Assembly (NCBI RefSeq): GCF_006345805.1
Contig: NW_021833617.1
Location: forward strand, 1-57,409
Direction: 5' to 3'
DNA: 57,409 nucleotides
DNA from: Octopus sinensis
Taxonomy: Eukaryota
Within the stretch, counting starts at the first letter, position 1; every line of letters begins with the position of its first letter. A program made the translations under genes and the position numbers. Of this stretch, positions 9,666-56,362 are shown piece by piece. The notes beneath the pieces were generated by a model, which saw nothing but the letters and a program-made list of their open reading frames with translations, was not told the DNA's origin and did not search any database.

Positions 9666-10044
9666 TGTTTGTATTATCAACATTCCAGCGATAGAGTTTT
9701 GTACTTTTGTTAGAAACCAGTTCCTTCTTCAGAGGAAGAATTTAAATAATTAAAAACAGAAGAGAACATAGATACATGCATAGTTAGAAGTGGCTGCAAC
9801 TAAACAAGTTGAAGACTGCTTTTCGAAAACTCGCTTTGTTGATCAAACTTTATGTAAGTGTATGTGAAGGCTGTTCTCTGAATTCAAGAATGAAACCAAC
9901 TGTGAGTATGAACTGTAAAGATCCACAGTCCACGTAGCTGACAAGGACATACACAGCCACTCTAGAATGACCAAGACTTTAAACACTAGAAGTATTTAGT
10001 GAATACTTATTCTGCCAAAGCAACAGAGATTTATATATATATAT

Positions 10045-10500
10045 ATCTAATATAGGATAAAATTTTTCGAAAAAAATTTTATCAATTGCCAGCATATTAA
10101 AAAATACCTTCAAAGGTTAAATTTATAAATTTAACCTATATTTTATCCTATATTAGATGTAAATTTAATAGTGTTCACTTTCGGACTCTCTCACTCTCTG
10201 AGAGTTTTCAGTTGGAATCGCACGTGTCTCGAGGTGTGCTGAAGAATTTCTATTTTGGATATATTTGGGGTACTTAGGTCTGCTCATGACTTAGTGCTTG
10301 CTTCTTGCATGGGTATGAGTAATTATTTCATTTATGTCTTACGTATTTATCGCTGAGGAGGGGAAAATTCTTATGAATTAACTCTGAAATTGGGACCAAT
10401 ACGGTAATAACGGAATTTTTTAGAAATTTCTGTCAGCTTGCTTCGAGACACGTATTTATAGTGATAAATTATATAGTTATTGACAATTTGTCTTTTTTCG
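10045..10500 (+). mobile_element. Penelope-like terminal repeat fragment with nested inverted repeats
   Basis: Perfect 19-bp inverted repeat (10045-10063/10140-10158), perfect 24-bp palindrome (10114-10137), and a ~30-bp imperfect inverted repeat (10222-10252/10421-10454) around a hammerhead. Confidence 0.55.
10342..10412 (+). ncRNA. Type I hammerhead ribozyme
   Basis: Stem I cgtatttatcg/cggtaataacg (6 bp, 2x2 loop, 3 bp); CTGAGGA 10353-10359; stem II GGGG/CTCT plus AATTC/GAATT; GAAA 10386-10389; stem III ATTG/CAAT; AUA cleavage triplet ending at 10401. Confidence 0.7.
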
Positions 10501-10538
10501 GCATATTTGGCATTAGAATGTTTATATATATATATGAA

Positions 10539-11050: not shown

Positions 11051-11184
11051 TTTTGACTCAAGACCAGCAATTTTGGGAGAGGGGAACTTGATTATATTGA
11101 TCCCAGTGTTCAGCTGGTACTTATTTTATCGATGCCGAAAGGATGAAAGATAAAGGCGACCTCAGCGGAACTTGAACTCAGAAC
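11051..11184 (-). mobile_element. SINE family A fragment
   Basis: Reverse complement of the ttctgagttcaa..ttccg..gaggtcg.cttt..ctttcatcctttcgg..tcgataaaataagtaccag core. Confidence 0.85.
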
Positions 11185-11249
11185 CTTTTTCAGTGTTGCT
11201 TTCTTTAACCAGTCCATTATTATTATTATTATTATTATCATCATCATTA

Positions 11250-11635
11250 AGACGGTACGCTGGCAGAATCGTTAGCACACCGGGCAAAATGCTTAGCGGT
11301 ATTTCGTCTGCCGTTACGTTCTGAGTTCAAATTCCACCGAGGTCGACTTTGCCTTTCATCCTTTCGGGGTCGATTAAATAAGTACCAGTTACGCACTGGG
11401 GTCGATATAATTGACTTAATCCGTTTGTCTGTCCTTGTTTGTTCTCTCTGTTTAGCCCCTTGTGGGTAGTAAAGAAATAGGTATTTCGTCTGAGTTCAAA
11501 TTCTGCCGAGGTCGACTTTGCCTTTCATCCTTTCGGGGTTGATAAATTAAGTACCAGTGAAACAGTGGGGGATCAATGAATCAACTAGACCTCTTCCCAC
11601 AAATTTCAGGCCTTATGCCTCCAGTAGAAAGGATT
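11250..11635 (+). mobile_element. tRNA-derived SINE family A, full copy plus partial tandem copy
   Basis: A-box-like tggcagaatcg and B-box gagttcaaattcc; the core gtcgactttgcctttcatcctttcgggg occurs twice (~11342 and ~11511). Confidence 0.9.
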
Positions 11636-12815: not shown

Positions 12816-12840
12816 GTATTATTATTATTAATATTATTAA

Positions 12841-13058
12841 GGCGGCGAGCTGGCAGGATTGTTTGTACGCCGGGCGAAATGCTTAGTGGTATTTCGCCCG
12901 TCGCTGCGTTCTGAGTTGAAGTTCTGCCGAGGTTATCTTTACCTTTAATCCTTCCGGGGTCGATAAATTAAGTACCAGTTGTATACTGAGGTTGATGTAA
13001 TCGACTAGTCCCCTCCCACCAAATTTCAGACCTTTTGCCTATAGTAGAAAAGGGTTAT
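12841..13058 (+). mobile_element. SINE family A, full-length
   Basis: ggcggcgagctggcag head, conserved core, and the tail ttttgcctatagtagaaaagggttattatt. Confidence 0.9.
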
Positions 13059-36453: not shown

Positions 36454-36789
36454 ACACACACACACAGATGACACTACTCTTTCTTCCTTCTTAATCTTCA
36501 ACACACAGAATGTATCCATAGCTGTACTTCTTTTTTATGAATAAAGAAGCCCAACACAGTAATGGCAACCTGATATTTAATCTCCATCAACAATTCCACA
36601 GAATCTTTGTACACAGCAAAAAGGCAGTCTTACAACACAATAACTAAAACTCTCAAAATCAATTTTAAAAACTCGGTTCCATAATCTTTAGTAACTTGTA
36701 ATAAAACCTCACACATAGAACATTGCCAAACAAAGTTTCTTTTCTCCCAGCAGCGGCAGCAACGCAACAAGTATATCCACATGAACAGG

Positions 36790-38693
36790 GATGAGTAGGA
36801 GAAGAAGCACGTCCATGTGGATGGGCATGAGCAGGAGAAGGAGCACGTCCATGTGGATGGGCATGAGCAGGAGAAGAAGCACGTCCATGTGGATGGGCAT
36901 GAGCAGGAGAATAAGCACATCCATGTGGATGGGCATGAGCAGGAGAAGAAGCACGTCCATGTGGATGGGCATGAGCAGGAGAAGAAGCACGTCCATGTGG
37001 ATGGGCATGAGCAGGAGAAGAAGCACGTCCATGTGGATGGGCATGAGCAGGAGAAGAAGCACGTCCATGTGGATGGGCATGAGCAGAGAAGAAGCACGTC
37101 CATGTGGATGGGCATGAGCAGGAGAAGAAGCACGTCCATGTGGATGGGCATGTGCAGGAGAAGGAGCACGTCCATGTGGATGGGCATGAGCAGGAGAAAA
37201 AGCACGTCCATGTGGATGGGCATGTGCAGGAGAAGAAGCACGTCCATGTGGATGGGCATGAGCAGGAGAAGAAGCACGTCCATGTGGATGGGCATGAGCA
37301 GGAGAAGAAGCACGTCCATGTGGATGGGCATGAGCAGGAGAAGAAGCACGTCCATGTGGATGGGCATGAGCAGGAGAAGAAGCACGTCCATGTGGATGGG
37401 CATGAGCAGGAGAAGAAGCACGTCCATGTGGATGGGCATGAGCAGGAGAAGAAGCACGTCCATGTGGATGGGCATGAGCAGGAGAAGGAGCACGTCCATG
37501 TGGATGGGCATGAGCAGGAGAATAAGCACGTCCATGTGGATGGGCATGAGCAGGAGAAGAAGCACGTCCATGTGGATGGGCATGAGCAGGAGAAGAAGCA
37601 CGTCCATGTGGATGGGCATGAGCAGGAGAAGAAGCACGTCCATGTGGATGGGCATGAGCAGGAGAAGAAGCACGTCCATGTGATGGGCATGAGCAGGAGA
37701 AGAAGCACGTCCATGTGGATGGCCATGAGCAGGAGAAGAAGCACGTCCATGTGGATGGGCATGAGCAGGAGAAGAAGCACGTCCATGTGGATGGGCATGT
37801 GCAGGAGAAGAGCACGTCCATGTGGATGGGCATGAGCAGGAGAAGAGCACGTCCATGTGGATGGGCATGAGCAGGAGAAGAAGCACGTCCATGTGGATGG
37901 GCATGAGCAGGAGAAGAAGCACGTCCATGTGGATGGGCATGAGCAGGAGAAGAAGCACGTCCATGTGGATGGCATGAGCAGGAGAAGAAGCACGTCCATG
38001 TGGATGGGCATGAGCAGGAGAAGAAGCACTTCCATGTGGATGGGCATGAGCAGGAGAAGAAGCACGTCCATGTGGATGGGCATGAGCAGGAGAAGAAGCA
38101 CGTCCATGTGGATGGCATGAGCAGGAGAAGAAGCACGTCCATGTGGATGGGCATGAGCAGGAGAAGAAGCACGTCCATGTGGATGGGCATGAGCAGGAGA
38201 AGGAGCACGTCCATGTGGATGGGCATGAGCAGGAGAAGAAGCACGTCCATGTGGATGGCATGAGCAGGAGAATAAGCACATCCATGTGGATGGGCATGAG
38301 CAGGAGAAGAAGCACGTCCATGTGGATGGCATGAGCAGGAGAAGAAGCACGTCCATGTGGATGGGCATGAGCAGGAGAAGAAGCACGTCCATGTGGATGG
38401 GCATGAGCAGGAGAAGAAGCACGTCCATGTGGATGGGCATGAGCAGGAGAAGAAGCACGTCCATGTGGATGGGCATGAGCAGGAGAAGAAGCACGTCCAT
38501 GTGGATGGGCATGAGCAGGAGAAGAAGCACGTCCATGTGGATGGGCATGTGCAGGAGAAGAAGCACGTCCATGTGGATGGGCATGAGCAGGAGAAGAAGC
38601 ACGTCCATGTGGATGGGCATGAGCAGGAGAAGAAGCACGTCCATGTGGATGGGCATGAGCAGGAGAAGAAGCACGTCCATGTGGATGGGCATG
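36790..38693. repeat. 36-bp minisatellite, ~53 copies (GCATGAGCAGGAGAAGAAGCACGTCCATGTGGATGG)
   Basis: Near-identical head-to-tail units over ~1.9 kb, with a degenerate extra unit at ~36760-36800. Confidence 0.98.
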
Positions 38694-38849
38694 AAAATAT
38701 ATATAAAAATATATAATGAGTTAGTTCACTGACTGAATAACGAAACTCAATATTTCAAAGTAAATCATTTTATTTTCTCAATACTAATTCTTTATTATTA
38801 ATTAGAGACAGAGTTCAAGTTCTTCGTGGAATCTGAGTTACATTTCTGT

Positions 38850-46454: not shown

Positions 46455-49400
46455 TCAGGATCCCCTCCAGGAGCCCCATTATCGACTTTTTCAAAAATGT
46501 GAGTATACCATGAGGTTTCCTCCTCTGGGCTTAAAAAACAAAGATGGCACCAAAGTGGGAGAAGAAAGAATTGAATCTTCTGTTGTGAGCATAGATGATT
46601 GCTAGTGGCGATCTGCCAAACAACATCATCACTGTTGCACTGAAAAACAATGGCTTTCACAGAACCACTGATCAGATAGAGCGGAAGAAGAATGAGTTCA
46701 TTCGATCCTATATGCTTATCAGACCACACATTGACACACTGGATGTCATAATCGAAAACTATTCTAGCTAGGATGATAAGAATGGAGAAGATGAAAAGGA
46801 AAAAAAACCTGGAAGTCTCTTTGATCCAGTGGTTCCTCAAAAGAATGGATCTCCCACCCCTGTGAACAACCAGGCAGAAAAGGATAGGGGAACCAAGGAA
46901 GCAGCAACTAGAAGCCCCTCTGTGCCAGTGGTCCTACAAAGGAACGGAGCCCTCACCCAGAGGAAAAAAGTTCCCACCACAAAAAAAGGCAGGACAGAAC
47001 ACAAACACAAACATAAAGAAGGAAAGGAAGAAAAAAGAAAAGGCAAAAATGAAACAACCGAAACCGAAACCCGAACCCACCAAACAAAAACCAGAAAACC
47101 CCATGGAGGATCCAATGCCATCCAAAACCCTACAGGAAAGAAGAAATTTGGAAGGCACTCAAGAACCTGCAAATTTTACATGCAAAGCATATGTTGGCAT
47201 GGGGAAAACAGCAAAAACTGTTGGTTTGCCCACCCAACACCCTGCCAATACTACAGGGGCCTTAAGGAGAAAAACTTCCCTGAGGAAAGACAACAAATGT
47301 CTCCAAGGAAACAAATTTATGAAAGAAGTGTCCTCTTCAGAGGTTATGTGCAATGCAGCAGCTGAGCAAGAGTCTTTTTTGTGCATGGCGCAAAGGATTG
47401 TACAACAGCTGACCTGGCTACACCAAGCACAAACAAGGAACATTGCACACCACTGAACAAGACCACCTCAGTCAACAGACATGGGATGGCCTCCCCTATT
47501 GCCTGTACAGTCGTCATGCCAATATTTTTACTAAATATTGGGGGCCTCTTGCATCATAATAAAAGCAAAATTTCTTTCCTGAGAGACCTTGCTGCATGCA
47601 ATCAAGGGAAAGGAACCATGGTGGAGTTGCTGTATACATCCAAGATGACCTCACACCCCAGGTCTTACTGCCATACTCAAATTCAGCATGTGACACACTA
47701 ATTGTGTACATAAGACAATATAATATAGTCATATGTAATACATATTGCCCACTGGATGCTACAAACCACATTGGCAAGTTTGAAGATTGCCTCACAAGGA
47801 GTAAAGAAATCCTCATGAATCTGGAACACCACGTGACCATATTTCTTATGGGTGATTTCAACTTCCCCAACGTCAAATGGCCTGAAGGTTTCATACTCTC
47901 AGGAATGACTCATTGCAAGCAAGCACAAGTGGAGTCCCTGCTCAACCTCACCAATGCCCTATTCATGGAGCAAGTTGTACTCAGACCAACTAGGGCAAAT
48001 AACATTCTGGATCTCTGCTTCACGAACAATATGGACATCATTCATGTGAAAGTGATGCCAACATTAGTCTCGGATCACAACATAATAGAGCTGTCTATGT
48101 TTGGGCCAAAAGTAACCAGGGACATACAGCCTAAAGGAAGCATCCGAAATCTCTCCAATCTCAACTTCCACAAAGCAGACTAGAAATTGATCCAAAAAGA
48201 GATCCTCAGACAGGACTGACCAAAATGTCTCTCCACACCAGACATTGACATGAAACTAGAATATTTCAAGTCTTCTGTGCAAGCCGTATGCCAGAAATAT
48301 GTCCCAGAGCACAAGGCCCAAATAATTAGGAGCAAGATTCCAGGAGAGAGGAAGATCCTCATGAGATGACAGACAAAGGCTGCAAATCAACTCAACCAAC
48401 ATCCCAAAAGCAGTGAAACGTCCCGCTTAAAAACAACACTGATGGAGATTGAAAAAAGGCTGCAACAATCTATGTGAGGGAGAAAGCAGACAAACAAGCC
48501 TGGGTATAAAAAACATTAAGTCAAACCCAAAGGCCTTCTGTCATTACCCGAAAGAAACAGCCTCAGTACGCTGCAAGGTAGGACCCCACCTCCAAAAAGA
48601 TGGCGCCCTCACAGACAGTCCAACTAGGATCAGTGAGATAGTGAATGACCAGTTCAAAAGTGTATTTACCGCCCCGTTGGAACACAGACAAGTGAATGAA
48701 CCAGTGGACTTCTTTGCCACCTCACCTATAACCAGCGAGACAGTTACGATGGAATACTTTGACATTAGCAAAGAAGATATACTACTAGCCATAGATGAAG
48801 TGGACACAAACTCAACTGCTGGTCCTGATGGTTTCCCAGCAATCCTCCTCAAATCGTGTAAGCATGCCCTGGTAAAACCCCTCCAGATTCTCTTCCAGAG
48901 CTTTCTTGCAAATGGCAAACTGGCAAGCAAGCTGAAGGAGGGAATAATATGCCCAATCCATAAAGGGGGAAGCAGAGCAGATGCCAAAAACTATAGGCCT
49001 ATCTCTCTGACTTCACACATCAGCAAAGTCATGGAACGGATCGTCAGAAAGAAACTAATCGCATTCCTTGAGGAAAATAACTTGCTGAGTGATACCCAGC
49101 ATGGTTTTCGACCAGGTATGAGCTGCCTGACCCAGCTCTTACAACATTATGACTGGGTGTTGAGGCAGTTACTCAACAACTCAAATGTGGATGTAACATA
49201 CCTTGATTTTGCAAAAGCTTTTGACAAGGTGGATCATACCATGATCATGGTATGATATGCCACAAACTGCATGATCTCGGCATAGCTGGAAAACTTAGAG
49301 AGTGGTTACATGACTTTCTGAAAGATAGGAGTCAGGCAGTAGTGGCTAATGGAACCACCTCTATGAAAACACAAATAGTGAGCAGTGTTCTGCAGGGCAC

Positions 49401-49810
49401 TGTCTTGGGATGACTGCTTTTTATAGTGGCCCTCAAGTGCCCAGATAGCCACCCTTACAAGCTACGCAGATGATATGGAAGTCTTGCAGAAAATACAGAA
49501 CCCCAGCGATGTTGCACATCTGCAGCATAAGTTGGACTCAATTTTCAGATGGGCTGAGGATAATAATATGCAATTCAATGCTGAAAAATTCCAAGCCCTG
49601 TGCTACAAACATCCAAAACAGAATATGAAACTTACAGGGTCCACTGGTCCACAGGGAATTTCAATCCCAGAGCCTAAATCAGTGAATGACCTGGGTATAA
49701 ACATGAGTAATGATACCTCTTTCCAAGTGCACATTACCAGGATGACGACAAAGTGCAGACGACTGGCTAGATGGATCCTAAGAACATTCAGAACAAGAGA
49801 TAAGGAAAAC
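46455..49810 (+). mobile_element. CR1/L2-group LINE copy 1 (ORF1, APE, RT; 3' end missing), inactivated
   Basis: APE motifs GGVAVYI, GDFNFP, LDLCF, SDH. RT motifs GPDG, PIHKGG, YRPISL, QHGFR, LDFAKAFDKVDH, YADD. Multiple stops and frameshifts. Confidence 0.92.
46829..47365 (+). pseudogene. LINE ORF1 fragment with CCCH-type zinc finger
   Basis: Lys-rich region followed by CKFYMQSICWHGENSKNCWFAH (C-x7-C-x8-C-x3-H) at 47168-47233. Confidence 0.6.
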
Positions 49811-51195
49811 CAAGATCCTAGAAGACACACACACAGACAGAACGGATTTTATATAATAGACAAAACGCCCCCCCCCCCCGGTCCAATGGACGGTGCTGAG
49901 TTGTCAAAGATTTAAACCAAATTTTCTTAAAACAACTTGTCTGACCGTCCCATAGGCCTCCCCTATGAGAATCACTGATTTAACCTAAATTTGAGACACC
50001 AGCAAAAGAATAAATAAAGATAGAAAGTTAAGGCAAAAAAAAAATTCTTGAGAAACCAAATAGTCTTTCCTTCCTTCATGCCAAGTTTGAAGAAAATATC
50101 TCTTTTGCACCTTACTTTTGTGGTCTCTTAAATATACTGCATTTTGTGGCATTATTTCAAGCCAGCTGGCTTTTCTTGTGCAAACTGCACATGCATTTTT
50201 CTCGTGTATGTGTAGTATCAATCGGAACAGCTGAGGTACTTGCGTGTACAAATGCACATTCCCACAGCTTTATAGATCGCATTCTCACCTGGAATCGATT
50301 TTTGTAATTTTTTCAAGACCTATATAGGCCCTGATACTGCCGCTATCTACAAATCAAATTTGAGTGCAATCGGATGGAGGATGCCCAAGATCCTACAAGA
50401 CACACACACACACAAACAGAACAGATTTTATATAATAGCCGTTTGCCAGCTTGGCCGTTTGCCAGCTCTGTCTGGCCCCGTGTCGGTGGCACGTAAAAGC
50501 ACCATCCGTTCGTGTTCGTTGTCAGACTCGGCTGGCCCCCGTGCCGGTGACACGTAAAAGCACCGTCCATTCGTGGCCGTTTGCCAGCTCTGTCTGGCCC
50601 CGTGCCGGTGACATGTAAAAGCACCATCCGTTCGTGGCCGTTCGCCAGCTCTGTCTGGCACCTGTGCAGGTGGAACGTAAAAAACACCCACTACACTCGC
50701 GGAGTGGTTGGCGTTAGGAAGGGCATCCAGCCGTAGAAACACTGCCAGATCTGACTGGGCCTGACGAAGCCTTCCAGCTTCACAGACCCCAGTTGACCCG
50801 TCCAACCCATGCTCTAGCATGGAACGCGGACGCTAAATGATGATGAGACAACTTGTGCGACTGTGGCATAGGCCTCCCCTTTGAGAAACACTGATTTAAC
50901 CTAAATTTGAGACACCAAACAGGCCAGCTTTTTTGCGCAAACTGCACGTGCAATTTTCTCGGGTACGTGTAGTATCGATTGGAACAGCTGAGGTACTTGC
51001 GCATACAAATGCACATTCCCACGGCTTTATCGATTGCATTCTCATCTGGAATCGATTTTTGTAATTTTTTCAAGACTTCTACATGCCCTGATACTGTTGG
51101 TATCTACAAATCAAATTTGAGCACAATCGGATGGAGGATGCCCGAGATCCTAGAAGACACACACACAGGAAGACAGAACAGATTTTATATAATAG
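49810..51195 (-). mobile_element. Tandem Helitron-like 5' ends (three copies)
   Basis: agatccta.aagacacacacac...agaac.gattttatataatag occurs three times, ending at ~49860, ~50438 and ~51195. The minus strand begins A|TCTATTATATAAAA. Confidence 0.7.
50439..50846 (+). mobile_element. SINE family B with ~60-bp internal repeats
   Basis: Repeated ccgtgccggtg.cacgtaaaagcacc.tcc units followed by the family B tail ending atgatgatga. Confidence 0.9.
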
Positions 51196-51274: not shown

Positions 51275-53550
51275 ACAGCTCTACACAACATGGTAGAGCT
51301 GACCATGTATGGACTAAAGGAAACCATGGACATGTAGCCTACAAGAATCTCTCCAGCTTGAACTTCCATAAGGCAAACTAGAAACAAACTGAGAAAAAGA
51401 TCCTCAAACAAAACTGGCCAAAATGTCTCTCCTCACTGGATATTGACATGAAACTTCAACAATTCATGTCTGTAATGCAAGCCATATGCTACAAATGCAT
51501 CCTGGAAAGAAAGGCCAATGTACACAAGAACAAAATACCCAGGGAGAGGAAAATTCTTATGACACGGCGGTACAAAAGTTTCAAATCGCCTAAACAAACA
51601 AATCTAAAGCAGTGAAAAGTCCCGCCTGAAAATAAAACTATTGGAAATTGAAAAATGTCTGCAACTCTCCCATGAAAAAGAAAGAGCAGACAAAGAAACC
51701 TGGGCTATAGACAATATAAAATCTAACTGCAGAGCTTTCTACAAGTTTGCCAAAGAAACAGCATCGGTGCACTGCAGGATAGGGCAGATGGTACACTCAC
51801 AGGAAACCCAATGAGGATAAGTGAAATACTAAATGAGCAATTCAAAAGTATTTTCACTCCACCCCTAGGACACTTGCAAGTCAGGAATCCAACTGACTTT
51901 TTTACCACTGCAGATATAAAAACAGAGGCAATGATGATCGATTACATCAATATAAAGGAAGACGATGTAATAAGGGCTATATATGAAATGAAAACAAACT
52001 CAGTTACTGGCCCTGATGGATTCCCAGCAATATTTCTAAAAGTATGTAAGCAAGTCCTAGCAAGACCACTGCAGTCCCCCTTTCAGAGCTCCCTTGCAAC
52101 TGGCAAACTTCCAAGAAAACTGAAGGAAGGTAAAATATTCCCTATTCATAAAGGAGGTGGCAGAGCGGAGGCCAAGAACTACAGACCTATCTCTCTCACC
52201 TCACACATCAGCAAGGTCATGGAATGAATAGTCAGAAGGAAACTAATCACCTTCCTTGAAGAAAATTACTTGCTGCCTGACACCCAACATGGTTTCCGAC
52301 CAGGAAGAAGCTGCCTAACTCAGCTCTTACAACACTATGACTGGGTGCTGAAACAGCTGCTCAACCACTCAAATGTGGAAGTCATATATCTCGACTTTGC
52401 AAAGTCGATCATGGAATGATATGTCACAAACTGCGTGATCTTGGCATAGTTGGAAAACTGGGAGAATGGCTTCATGACTTTCTGAAGGATAGAAGTCAGG
52501 TGGTAGTAGCCAATGGGGCCACTTCCACTAACATGCAAATAGTGAGCGGTGTTCCGCAAGGCACAGTTTTGGGACCACTACTGTTCATAATGGCCCTCTC
52601 AGATATGCCCTCAGCCACACAGAGAGCCACGATCACAAGTTATGCAGATGATACAAAAGTTTCACAGGTAATACAGAACCCTGAAGACACTATGCATCTG
52701 CAATGTGAGCTGGATGAAATATACAAGTGGGCTGAAAAGAATAGCATGCTTTTTAATACTGAAAAGTTTCAAGTCTTGTGCTATCAGCATGCAAAACTAA
52801 ATGCAATACCCATTAAATACACTGGACCTGGAAGGATTGCAATTCCAGAAGCACGGTCAGTGCAAGACCTCAGCATTTACATGAGTAATGATGCATCCTT
52901 TCACGAGCATGTTGCTAAATTGGCAATGAAATGCAGGTGGCAACCAGATGGATTCTTAGAACTTTTAGAGCAAGCGACCAAGAAACCATGATGGTCCTCT
53001 GGAGGACATTTGCCCCAAGCCACTTTCACTATTGCTCTCAGTTATGGTCACCATCCAGTGTCAAATTAGTCTCAGAACTTCAGGCAATCCAACAAAGCTA
53101 CATGAAGAAGATAGCCTCTATGCAGCATATAAGCTACTGGGAAAGACTCAAGAGAGAGCATAGGTGAGAAAGATATGCCATAATATACATCTGGAAGATC
53201 CTGGAAGGACTTGTCCCAAACTTTGGCATTGAGAGTAACACAAATACTAGAACTGGGCACCACTGCTTAGTGCCAAGGATTCCAAATTTGCCATCAAGAT
53301 GTAGGACAAGATACTGCAATAGCCTGGGCTTCAGAGGTCCACAGCTCTTCAATATCCTCCTGTCAGGTGTCCCAGATGAACCAACTTTGCGGCTGGAGGT
53401 GCATATGAGGGCAGCTGCATCAAACTCTCTCATGCACCGAATGTCAATTCCTAAAGAGCATTCGTGAAGTAAAAATACATAGCAACACCAATTGGCGGTG
53501 CCCCAGCATGGTCACAGCTCATGAACTGAAACTAGATAAAATAAGAAAAA
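51275..53550 (+). mobile_element. CR1/L2-group LINE copy 2 (end of APE to 3' tail), inactivated
   Basis: GPDGFP, YRPISL, GVPQGTVLGPLLF, SYADD and YCSQLWSP motifs; 3' tail ggcggtgccccagcatggtcacagctcatgaactgaaactagataaaataag. Confidence 0.92.
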
Positions 53551-55073: not shown

Positions 55074-56362
55074 GGAGCATTCAATAAGTAATGCCCCTGA
55101 CCCACTTCCCATAGCAGTAGAGCAACGAAACTTGGTACAGTTATTAGTCTGTTTCTACATAGGAACCACCCAGAGTTACGTATTTCTCCCATCGTTTGAT
55201 GCAGCTCTGGAGACCGTTTTTGTAGAAGACCCCAGCTTGGTATTCCGACCACGATGTGACTTCAGAAATCAAGGCTGCATCATCTGGGAAACGCTTTCCT
55301 TTCAAAAAACAACTTCATGGGTAGGAAGAGGTGAAAATCAGAGGGTGCAAGGTCAGGAGAGTAGGGGGGATGGGGGAGGAGTTCATAGCCGCACGCCTGT
55401 GCTTCTGATCTGGCGACACACGAGTTGTGGACCGGAGCATTGTCCTGCAGGAGGAGGATGCCTTTGCTGATCTTGCCCCGCCTCTTGATTTTGATAGCTT
55501 CTCTTAATTTCCTCAAAAGTGAAGCATAATAGGCTCCTGTAATTGTGGTACCCTTTGCCAGGAAATCTGTCATCACTACTCCATCCTGGTCCCAGAAGAC
55601 TGTGAGCATGACCTTGCCAGCAGAGGGCTGCACCCTTGCCTTCTTTGGAGGAGGTGAGTCACGGTGCTTCCACTGCATTGACTGGGCTTTGGTCTCTGGA
55701 TCATAGTGATGGACCCAGGTTTCATCCTGTGTTATCAGTCTTTTGAAAAATTTTGACTCATCTTCTTGGCACATCTCCAAATTCATCCTCAAGCACTCGA
55801 TGCATTCTTGCTTCTGGAAAGGTGTGAGCAACCTGGGAATCCATCAGGCAGACACCTTTTGTATATGCAAATGGTCATGAATGCTAGTTTCCACAGACCC
55901 GGTACTAATCTTGACCTCATGGGCTATTTGGCGAATAGTTATGCGTCGATCTTCCAAAATAGCAGCCTCAACTTGACGGACAGATGCCTCATCAATGGCA
56001 GAAGGGGGCGACCAGATCTGGGAGCTGTTTCCACAGAGTTCCGACCATGTTTGAAATCACGATGCCAGCGTTTTACAAGGTCATATGATGGGGCATCATC
56101 ACCATAAGTTACTTTCATTTCATCAAAAGTCTCCCGTGGTGTGCGTCATTTCAAATACAAAAACCGGATCACTACTCGACACTCAACAGGCTCCATTTCA
56201 CACTTGACTCAGTTCAAACACCTGTAAATCAGAAACCACAATTAGTTCAGAGCTGTAATTTGCCACTTAATCTATAGAGATACAAATAATTGAACATGCA
56301 AAATTTCGGCTGGATCAAGCAAATGCAATGGGTCAGAGGCATTACTTATTGAACGTCCCTCG
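55071..56362 (-). mobile_element. Full-length mariner (DD34D) transposon, 1292 bp
   Basis: 34-bp imperfect TIRs (55071-55104 and 56329-56362) flanked by TA within a (TA)n tract. Confidence 0.95.
55144..56196 (-). pseudogene. Mariner transposase pseudogene (irritans-like)
   Basis: MEPVECRVVIRFLYLK*, *WIPRLLT, QDETW, QDNAPVH-34 aa-YSPDLAPSD. At least two in-frame TGA stops and a frameshift near 55305. Confidence 0.92.

What the first reader, a model, noticed from the sequence alone, without database searches (positions are those of the whole stretch)
10342..10412. Complete-looking type I hammerhead ribozyme inside nested inverted repeats
Seen: all core elements are in order (CUGAGGA, GAAA, AUA^ cleavage site after 10401). 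All three helices can form, and stem I has an internal loop that could make tertiary contacts with the extended stem II. A ~30-bp inverted repeat (10222-10252/10421-10454) encloses it. Established: Penelope-like elements and retrozymes carry type I hammerheads in their terminal repeats, usually minimal forms with a weak palindromic stem III. Inference: this copy has a self-closing stem III and might cleave as a monomer, marking a cephalopod Penelope or retrozyme family. Caveats: pair 10.1-11.1 is G-U, and the motif is antisense to the inferred host gene.
Basis: partly seen in the sequence, partly recalled or inferred. Interest (0 to 1): 0.75.

Follow-up and report, generated by a model that had tools for sequence, protein, structure and literature searches.

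The report
Hammerhead retrozyme copy, Penelope-style insertion
This is one worn copy of a very abundant, protein-free repeat in an octopus-like genome that carries a conserved hammerhead ribozyme motif, predicted to cut its own RNA, and was likely pasted into TA repeats by a Penelope-type retrotransposon enzyme; it is a likely new member of a known class (animal retrozymes).

Summary
The motif is real: a type I hammerhead at 10342-10412 (+) with a predicted cut after 10401. It lies in one copy of a non-coding, about 480-nt repeat with at least 1,935 exact 24-mer matches genome-wide. Three subfamilies keep all 11 core bases, while 25 of 60 other motif positions differ, with compensatory changes in all three helices. 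The G-U at 10.1-11.1 is a subfamily trait (others have G-C or A-U), not decay. Insertions look like those of Penelope-like elements: partial tandems, an inverted second arm, (TA)n flanks. 57 of 61 classifiable two-armed insertions end at two different fixed sites. No ORF is linked, and the genome's abundant Neptune-like element has an unrelated terminal repeat, so the mobiliser is unidentified. Stem III (4 bp) is marginal as a hairpin and self-complementary, so monomer cleavage is possible but not shown. This copy has one hammerhead and cannot release a unit. Cleavage and circular RNA are untested. Verdict: new member of the animal non-LTR retrozymes. This scan has noted the class and the two-armed pattern many times before on other octopus DNA.

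The parts
10032..10046 (.). (TA)n tract at the left end of the insertion (likely target)
   Evidence: sequence; 112 of 134 outer flanks of two-armed insertions carry (TA)4 or more
10047..10129 (-). short inverted left arm, about 85 nt of the unit, ending at fixed end E2
   Evidence: blastn to natural units, 91-93% identical; inverted repeat I15 is its overlap with the right arm
10130..10140 (.). junction between the arms, at an AT-rich local palindrome
   Evidence: sequence
10141..10523 (+). right arm, about 0.8 of a 482-nt unit of subfamily A, ending near fixed end E1 (about 17 nt missing just before it compared with L004)
   Evidence: differs from the subfamily A majority at 16 of 346 compared sites
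10222..10252 (+). 5' strand of the enclosing stem (pairs with 10421-10453); internal feature of the unit
   Evidence: fold; most pairs kept in all three subfamilies, few double changes
10257..10339 (+). long imperfect hairpin beside the hammerhead inside the enclosing stem
   Evidence: fold; pairing largely kept across subfamilies
10342..10412 (+). type I hammerhead motif; core 10353-10359, 10386-10389, 10400-10401; predicted cut 10401/10402
   Evidence: sequence; covariation; core conservation; descriptor against shuffles
10389..10400 (+). stem III: 4-bp hairpin with GGAC loop, near-perfect palindrome able to pair with a second copy
10421..10453 (+). 3' strand of the enclosing stem
10523..10535 (.). 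(TA)n tract at the right end, followed by a (CA)n microsatellite
   Evidence: sequence

Best explanation
This is one copy of a high-copy, non-coding repeat of about 480 nt with a conserved type I hammerhead motif, likely a non-autonomous retroelement of the animal non-LTR retrozyme class that was likely mobilised by a Penelope-like element. Inferred cycle: a tandem source copy is transcribed. Successive hammerheads would cut out one unit (454-498 nt), either as monomers or by pairing their self-complementary stems III, and a host ligase would close it into a circle. A Penelope-type endonuclease/reverse transcriptase would cut a (TA)n tract and prime cDNA from both broken ends at two fixed AU-rich sites, about 150 and 235 nt after the cut site. 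This leaves two arms joined head to head, as seen here. Shown: the motif, the copy number, covariation, non-coding units, insertion shape. Inferred or untested: cleavage, circle, enzyme. This copy has a single hammerhead and 0.8 unit, so it is a dead end that could at most cut a read-through transcript once.
For: Copy number: exact matches of 1,935 and 1,103 for two 3' motifs, and 129, 315 and 421 for subfamily-specific core motifs; all reversed-pattern controls gave 0. Selection on the ribozyme: 0 of 11 core positions differ between subfamilies against 25 of 60 other motif positions (Fisher p=0.006). In 64 sequences 91.8% of cells pair, 9 of 21 pairs show double changes, spread over all three stems; 0 of 500 shuffles reach the paired share, and slid controls pair 26-42%. 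Core intact in 57 of 74 segments from loci chosen without regard to the core. Four natural cut-to-cut monomers are 454-498 nt, GC 0.32-0.35, and fold better as circles than shuffles. Penelope-type footprint: 66 distinct two-armed insertions among 107; 57 of 61 classifiable ones have one E1 and one E2 end, none E1/E1 (p=5e-13 against one half); 112 of 134 outer flanks are (TA)n. These match the partial tandem, inverted 5' copy and one-sided tail described for PLEs (PMC8557442, passages). Template longer than a cut linear monomer: 92 of 184 arms run back across the cut site and 35 of 184 exceed one unit, up to 2.2 units. Sister arms are closer to each other than to any other sampled copy in 17 of 19 cases with 150 nt or more of overlap. 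An abundant Neptune-like PLE (RT, CX4CxxC linker, GIY-YIG) is present and its 3' ends also abut (TA)n.
Against: No cleavage or RNA data of any strength. The covariation rests on three subfamilies, so on about seven subfamily-level double changes, not 177 independent cells; the count of doubly changed pairs is reached by 30 of 500 shuffles. Core against all other positions is only p=0.075. RNAalifold recovers stems I and II but not stem III. The active fold is 2.6-6.8 kcal/mol above the minimum in five copies. No homology to the terminal region of the one autonomous PLE examined (scores 22-31, shuffled maxima 33-35), and 0 of 30 of its copies end at the shared-looking short motif. Over all overlaps, sister arms beat the best other copy in only 20 of 41, and repeated laps in 8 of 18. 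Arms longer than one unit fit an uncleaved tandem transcript as well as a circle. In a recent test only 1 of 9 predicted frog retrozyme dimers cleaved in vitro (bioRxiv 10.64898/2026.07.22.740005).
Confidence: 0.82

Rival explanations
1. The unit is the terminal repeat (pLTR) of an autonomous Penelope-like element that was not sampled; most copies are 5'-truncated remnants.
For: Insertion shape and (TA)n targeting are those of PLEs (PMC8557442). PLE pLTRs carry hammerheads (PMC4209133, passages). Frog retrozymes are homologous to pLTRs (bioRxiv 10.64898/2026.07.22.740005). Only about 107 insertions from one chromosome were mapped.
Against: Arms of up to 2.2 units repeat the unit directly with no ORF between. 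PLE protein fragments lie in 7 of 180 loci; the two looked at are separate insertions (L027 after the TA tract; L047 interrupted in its 3' region by the unit's inverted arm). Three subfamilies have each spread as unit-only insertions.
Confidence: 0.08
2. The family spreads from linear, uncleaved tandem transcripts. The hammerhead trims ends or works only as a dimer, and no circle is involved.
For: Long arms need only a template longer than one unit. Stem III is unstable alone (0.0 to +1.8 kcal/mol) and an alternative helix hides the cut site. The longest arm seen is 2.2 units, with no long arrays in this sample.
Against: Core conservation argues that cutting matters. In three young insertions the repeated laps are 99.3-100% identical over 335-448 nt while the best other copy is 95%, as expected if one template is read twice. 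Circles are the main form in mussel (PMC7229834, section 14).
Confidence: 0.25
3. A DNA-level element (MITE-like, or satellite-derived) with terminal inverted repeats that happens to contain a hammerhead-like sequence.
For: Insertions are flanked by inverted repeats and sit in TA sequence.
Against: The inverted arms vary in length, join at variable points and end at two different sites (57 of 61 E1/E2), unlike fixed terminal inverted repeats. Strand-specific G-U pairs and the core are conserved.
Confidence: 0.03

Closest known systems
Metazoan non-LTR retrozymes (Cervera and de la Pena 2020, PMC7229834; seen: abstract text, passages, sections 14 and 17)
   Same: Type I hammerhead in a short, non-coding, low-GC repeat; thousands of copies; tandem copies; a mollusc example exists (Mytilus, about 5000 hammerheads, 350-390 bp units).
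   Different: Units here are 454-498 nt, above the 150-450 bp range quoted. Copies are mostly 0.2-2.2 units in two-armed insertions. Stem III is 4 bp and stem II is extended by an internal loop. Cephalopods are not mentioned in the main text (0 hits for octopus or cephalopod); supplements not seen.
Retrozymes as non-autonomous PLE derivatives (Li, Clavereau, Pollet, bioRxiv 10.64898/2026.07.22.740005; seen: parts 1-3 of 5, abstract to discussion; supplements closed)
   Same: Same class, same proposed mobiliser; monomer and dimer copies dispersed over chromosomes.
   Different: Their link is co-occurrence and pLTR homology in frogs; no cephalopod among the 35 species by the classes listed. Here pLTR homology was not found, and the link is the insertion footprint.
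EN+ Penelope-like elements, Neptune/Naiad/Hydra type insertions (Craig et al. 2021, PMC8557442; seen: passages)
   Same: 5' truncation, partial tandem, inverted copy at the 5' end, tail at only one end, (TA)n bias. Non-autonomous Chlamys derivatives with head-to-tail copies are described.
   Different: No ORF here; the tail is about 85-100 nt rather than 30-40 bp; no 3' homology to the autonomous element examined.
Canonical and minimal type I hammerheads of metazoans and PLEs (Cervera and de la Pena 2014, PMC4209133; seen: passages)
   Same: Six-bp proximal helix I, four-bp proximal helix II, self-complementary loop 3.
   Different: Helix III is 4 bp rather than 1-2 bp; 10.1-11.1 is A-U, G-C or G-U rather than the highly conserved G-C; no extra base between 9 and 10.1.

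Membership tests
Type I hammerhead ribozyme | Conserved core CUGAnGA / GAAA / UH in order | tested here: met
   0 of 11 core positions differ between subfamilies
Type I hammerhead ribozyme | Three helices, helix I open, supported by covariation | tested here: met
   (double changes in each helix); stem III not recovered by RNAalifold
Type I hammerhead ribozyme | Match to an Rfam hammerhead model | tested here: not met
   none; likely because of the extended stem II and the non-G-C 10.1-11.1 pair (inference)
Type I hammerhead ribozyme | Loop I-loop II tertiary contact | tested here: inconclusive
   internal loops in stems I and II are kept and the 3' AA of the stem II loop is 90% or more conserved; no contact was modelled
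Type I hammerhead ribozyme | Self-cleavage at the predicted site | not testable with these tools
   needs in vitro transcription
Animal non-LTR retrozyme | Short non-coding low-GC unit carrying a type I hammerhead | tested here: met
   454-498 nt, GC 0.32-0.35; period 482; no stop-to-stop frame of 100 aa over the window copy
Animal non-LTR retrozyme | Tandem copies with two consecutive hammerheads | tested here: met
   four natural cut-to-cut monomers recovered from 180 loci; family-level only, the window copy has one hammerhead
Animal non-LTR retrozyme | High copy number, dispersed | tested here: met
Animal non-LTR retrozyme | Expressed as unit-length circular RNA | not testable with these tools
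   no holder on record as RNA; contigs only
Autonomous Penelope-like element (pLTR of) | RT plus GIY-YIG ORF flanked by this repeat | tested here: not met
   sample-limited
PLE-mobilised element | Partial tandem, inverted 5' arm, one-sided tail, (TA)n target | tested here: met
PLE-mobilised element | Shared 3' end with an autonomous PLE of the same genome | tested here: inconclusive
   not met for the one Neptune-like family examined; other PLE families not surveyed

The most novel reading that the evidence does not exclude
The paired E1/E2 ends are a fossil record of a Penelope-type reverse transcriptase priming from both ends of a cut (TA)n tract at two fixed sites on one small RNA circle and running past the ribozyme junction. 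This would be direct genomic evidence for the proposed but unshown way in which animal retrozymes are copied, with a 4-bp, self-complementary stem III letting the ribozyme switch between monomer and dimer cutting.
Probability: 0.35. Interest if true: 0.6.

Novelty: new member of a known kind. Interest (0 to 1): 0.38.

Why it matters
It extends hammerhead retrozymes to a large three-subfamily repeat in an octopus-like genome and supplies a natural covariation set in which the usually fixed G10.1-C11.1 pair is G-C, A-U or G-U. The fixed, paired insertion ends give a concrete test of the suggestion in PMC7229834 that Penelope-like elements copy retrozyme circles: an in vitro or cell assay should reproduce E1/E2 arms in (TA)n. 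The single copy in the window matters little; it is truncated and cannot excise a unit. The class is in print, and this scan has already noted the same pattern on many other families, which limits the surprise.

Tried and rejected
Rfam: no hammerhead match. Linkage to the Neptune-like PLE found beside L027: its terminal repeat carries its own minimal hammerhead-like motif and has no homology to the unit; a shared short motif at E2 looked promising, but 0 of 30 PLE copies end there. Clustering of 5' truncations at the cut site: none evident, 13 of 184 arms start within 20 nt after it. Fold-back origin of the second arm: 16 of 60 arm pairs join within 25 nt of the same unit position against 9.3 expected (p=0.013), a weak effect, not pursued. 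Selection for the dimer-only inner G-C pair of stem III: kept in the three subfamilies but never covarying, so uninformative. Expression: no RNA holder listed. Contigs of runs guessed to be RNA cover the unit, but they cannot show ends, strand or level; two contigs starting at 10402 in one run may be graph breaks. Host gene: 101 of 180 filtered frames (581 in all) scanned against Pfam gave only transposon domains, so no host strand could be set; short exons would be missed. Copy-number extrapolation (7 exact of 53 sites, about 15,000 arms) is too rough to rely on. One search used core coordinates off by one and a too-narrow pattern; it is superseded. One search used too-narrow end bins; superseded. 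Seven of 70 segments with indels in the motif were left out of alignment A1. A genome-wide search with the covariance model was not available. Literature searches listed no paper on an octopus retrozyme; the giant squid genome paper counts 235 Rfam hammerhead-1 loci without analysis (PMC6962438, passage). Repbase and unseen supplements may already hold this repeat.

Full report
Observation. The core is CUGAGGA (10353-10359), GAAA (10386-10389) and AUA (10399-10401). Stem I is six pairs, a 2x2 loop and three pairs; stem II is four pairs, an AA/AA loop and five pairs; stem III is four pairs with a GGAC loop. A structural descriptor finds this one site in the window and none in 300 dinucleotide shuffles. 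Rfam does not recognise it. The predicted minimum-energy fold pairs 10342-10347 with 10398-10403 across the cut site; the hammerhead fold is 3.5 kcal/mol higher, alone and in context. Nearest-neighbour energies leave out the core and tertiary contacts (established knowledge), so this does not exclude activity.

A repeat family. The window is a whole 57-kb contig of a 2.72-Gb genome. I call it octopus-like from its size, a SINE recalled from memory and earlier scan notes; no tool named it. A DNA search gave 3,170 candidates; 40 were scored and each gave a match of 252-291 nt at 90-94% identity apart from the window itself. Exact motifs occur 1,935 and 1,103 times in the 3' part and 129, 315 and 421 times in the cores of subfamilies A, B and C, with reversed controls at 0. 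The period is 482 nt in L027, and four natural cut-to-cut monomers are 454-498 nt with GC 0.32-0.35. The window copy belongs to subfamily A and differs from its majority at 16 of 346 sites. Among 107 insertions picked by 3' motifs, 20 are A, 41 B and 46 C.

The ribozyme is under selection. In 71 long segments none of 11 core positions differs between subfamily majorities, while 25 of 60 other motif positions and 55 of 275 outside positions do (p=0.006 against the rest of the motif, 0.075 against everything). The core is intact in 57 of 74 segments chosen without regard to it. On the window copy plus 63 of 70 distinct segments (7 with indels dropped), 91.8% of cells pair and 9 of 21 pairs have double changes. 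These include 1.1-2.1 (G-C/A-U), 10.1-11.1 (A-U 33, G-C 23, G-U 7), three more stem II pairs and the third pair of stem III. Slid controls pair 26-42%. These are about seven subfamily-level events, not independent cells. The G-U at 10.1-11.1 is in all 129 exact copies of the A motif, so it is inherited. N7 is C, A, U or G. RNAalifold finds stems I and II but not III.

Stem III. It is longer than the 1-2 bp typical of metazoan type I motifs (PMC4209133), but it remains a near-palindrome in all subfamilies. As a hairpin it scores 0.0 to +1.8 kcal/mol, as a homodimer -8.9 to -13.9. Both modes are open. Efficient cleavage by invertebrate retrozyme hammerheads is already in print (PMC7229834), so monomer cleavage would not be a novelty.

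The inverted repeats. The stem 10222-10252/10421-10453 is part of the unit and is mostly kept in all subfamilies with few double changes; it encloses a long hairpin and the hammerhead. The outer repeat (I15) is an insertion product: a short inverted arm (10047-10129) joined head to head to the main arm (10141-10523), each facing a (TA)n tract.

Insertion footprint. Of 107 insertions, 66 distinct ones are two-armed. Arms end at two fixed sites, E1 about 150 nt and E2 about 235-265 nt after the cut site. Of 61 classifiable pairs, 57 are E1/E2, 4 are E2/E2 and none is E1/E1. The window copy follows the rule. (TA)n lies at 112 of 134 outer flanks (one duplicated insertion counted twice). Craig et al. 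describe the same set of features for Penelope-like elements: partial tandem, inverted 5' copy, a tail often at only one end, (TA)n bias (PMC8557442). 92 of 184 arms extend back across the cut site and 35 exceed one unit, so the template was not a cut linear monomer; it was a circle or an uncut tandem. Sister arms average 96.1% identity against a median of 88.6% to other copies, and are each other's best match in 17 of 19 long overlaps but 20 of 41 overall. Repeated laps are 99.3-100% identical in three young insertions and beat the best other copy in 8 of 18.

The partner. A PLE fragment beside L027 led to an abundant family (12,963 candidates, 150 scored) with RT, a CX4CxxC linker and GIY-YIG, hence Neptune-like by the linker criterion in PMC8557442. 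Its 3' ends abut (TA)n and its terminal repeat has a different, minimal hammerhead-like motif. It shows no homology to the unit, and a look-alike end motif failed its test in 30 of 30 copies. PLE fragments lie in 7 of 180 loci; the two inspected are separate insertions. The mobiliser is therefore inferred from the footprint, not identified.

Expression and host gene. No run on record as RNA holds the stretch, and contigs cannot show ends or circles. No host exon was found, so the 'antisense' caveat is unverified. The model built from A1 finds no second motif in the window, so this copy cannot excise a unit.

Comparison and verdict. It meets the testable marks of animal non-LTR retrozymes (PMC7229834) and fits their proposed origin and mobilisation by PLEs (PMC7229834 discussion; bioRxiv 10.64898/2026.07.22.740005). 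Seven literature searches listed no octopus retrozyme paper. Earlier notes of this scan report the class and the two-armed ends repeatedly (17 findings hold all search words; 212 notes in this genome fit 'hammerhead retrozyme'), though no look-alike of this sequence was returned. Those notes are leads, not support. New member of a known kind; interest 0.38.

Noticed in passing
L211-L214 (e.g. L212:845-5400); G000-wide: Very abundant, young Neptune-like Penelope family (12,963 candidates) with open frames of 800-950 aa; its terminal repeat has a minimal hammerhead-like motif whose first core box departs from CUGAnGA (CUGUnGA-like), and its 3' ends abut (TA)n.
   Followed up: partly
L237, L238; also G000 C5:121298334-121299378, C8:39642773-39644231, C15:1450365-1451528: The same PLE's terminal region appears in ORF-less-looking tandem repeats with periods of about 340-570 nt, possibly retrozyme-like derivatives of that PLE.
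   Followed up: no
window 36630-38754: Tandem array of about 36-nt units with long open frames on both strands (His/Glu/Lys-rich on the plus strand); probably a minisatellite.
   Followed up: no
window 46772-49915 and 51727-53464: Two broken LINE copies with endonuclease and reverse transcriptase domains (Pfam).
   Followed up: partly
window 55283-56145 (-): Broken mariner-type transposase (Transposase_1, HTH_48).
   Followed up: partly
window 11091-11570 and 12817-13000: Several copies of one SINE-like repeat in both orientations close to the element.
   Followed up: no
L070-L073 (G000 C1:12994800-12996100): A whole two-armed insertion is duplicated in tandem with its flanks, about 917 nt apart.
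   Followed up: no
run X11: In a run from a second organism a few contigs of one diverged variant cover most of the unit at high depth (about 290-870), a possible hint of a dominant expressed copy; the run type is only guessed.
   Followed up: partly
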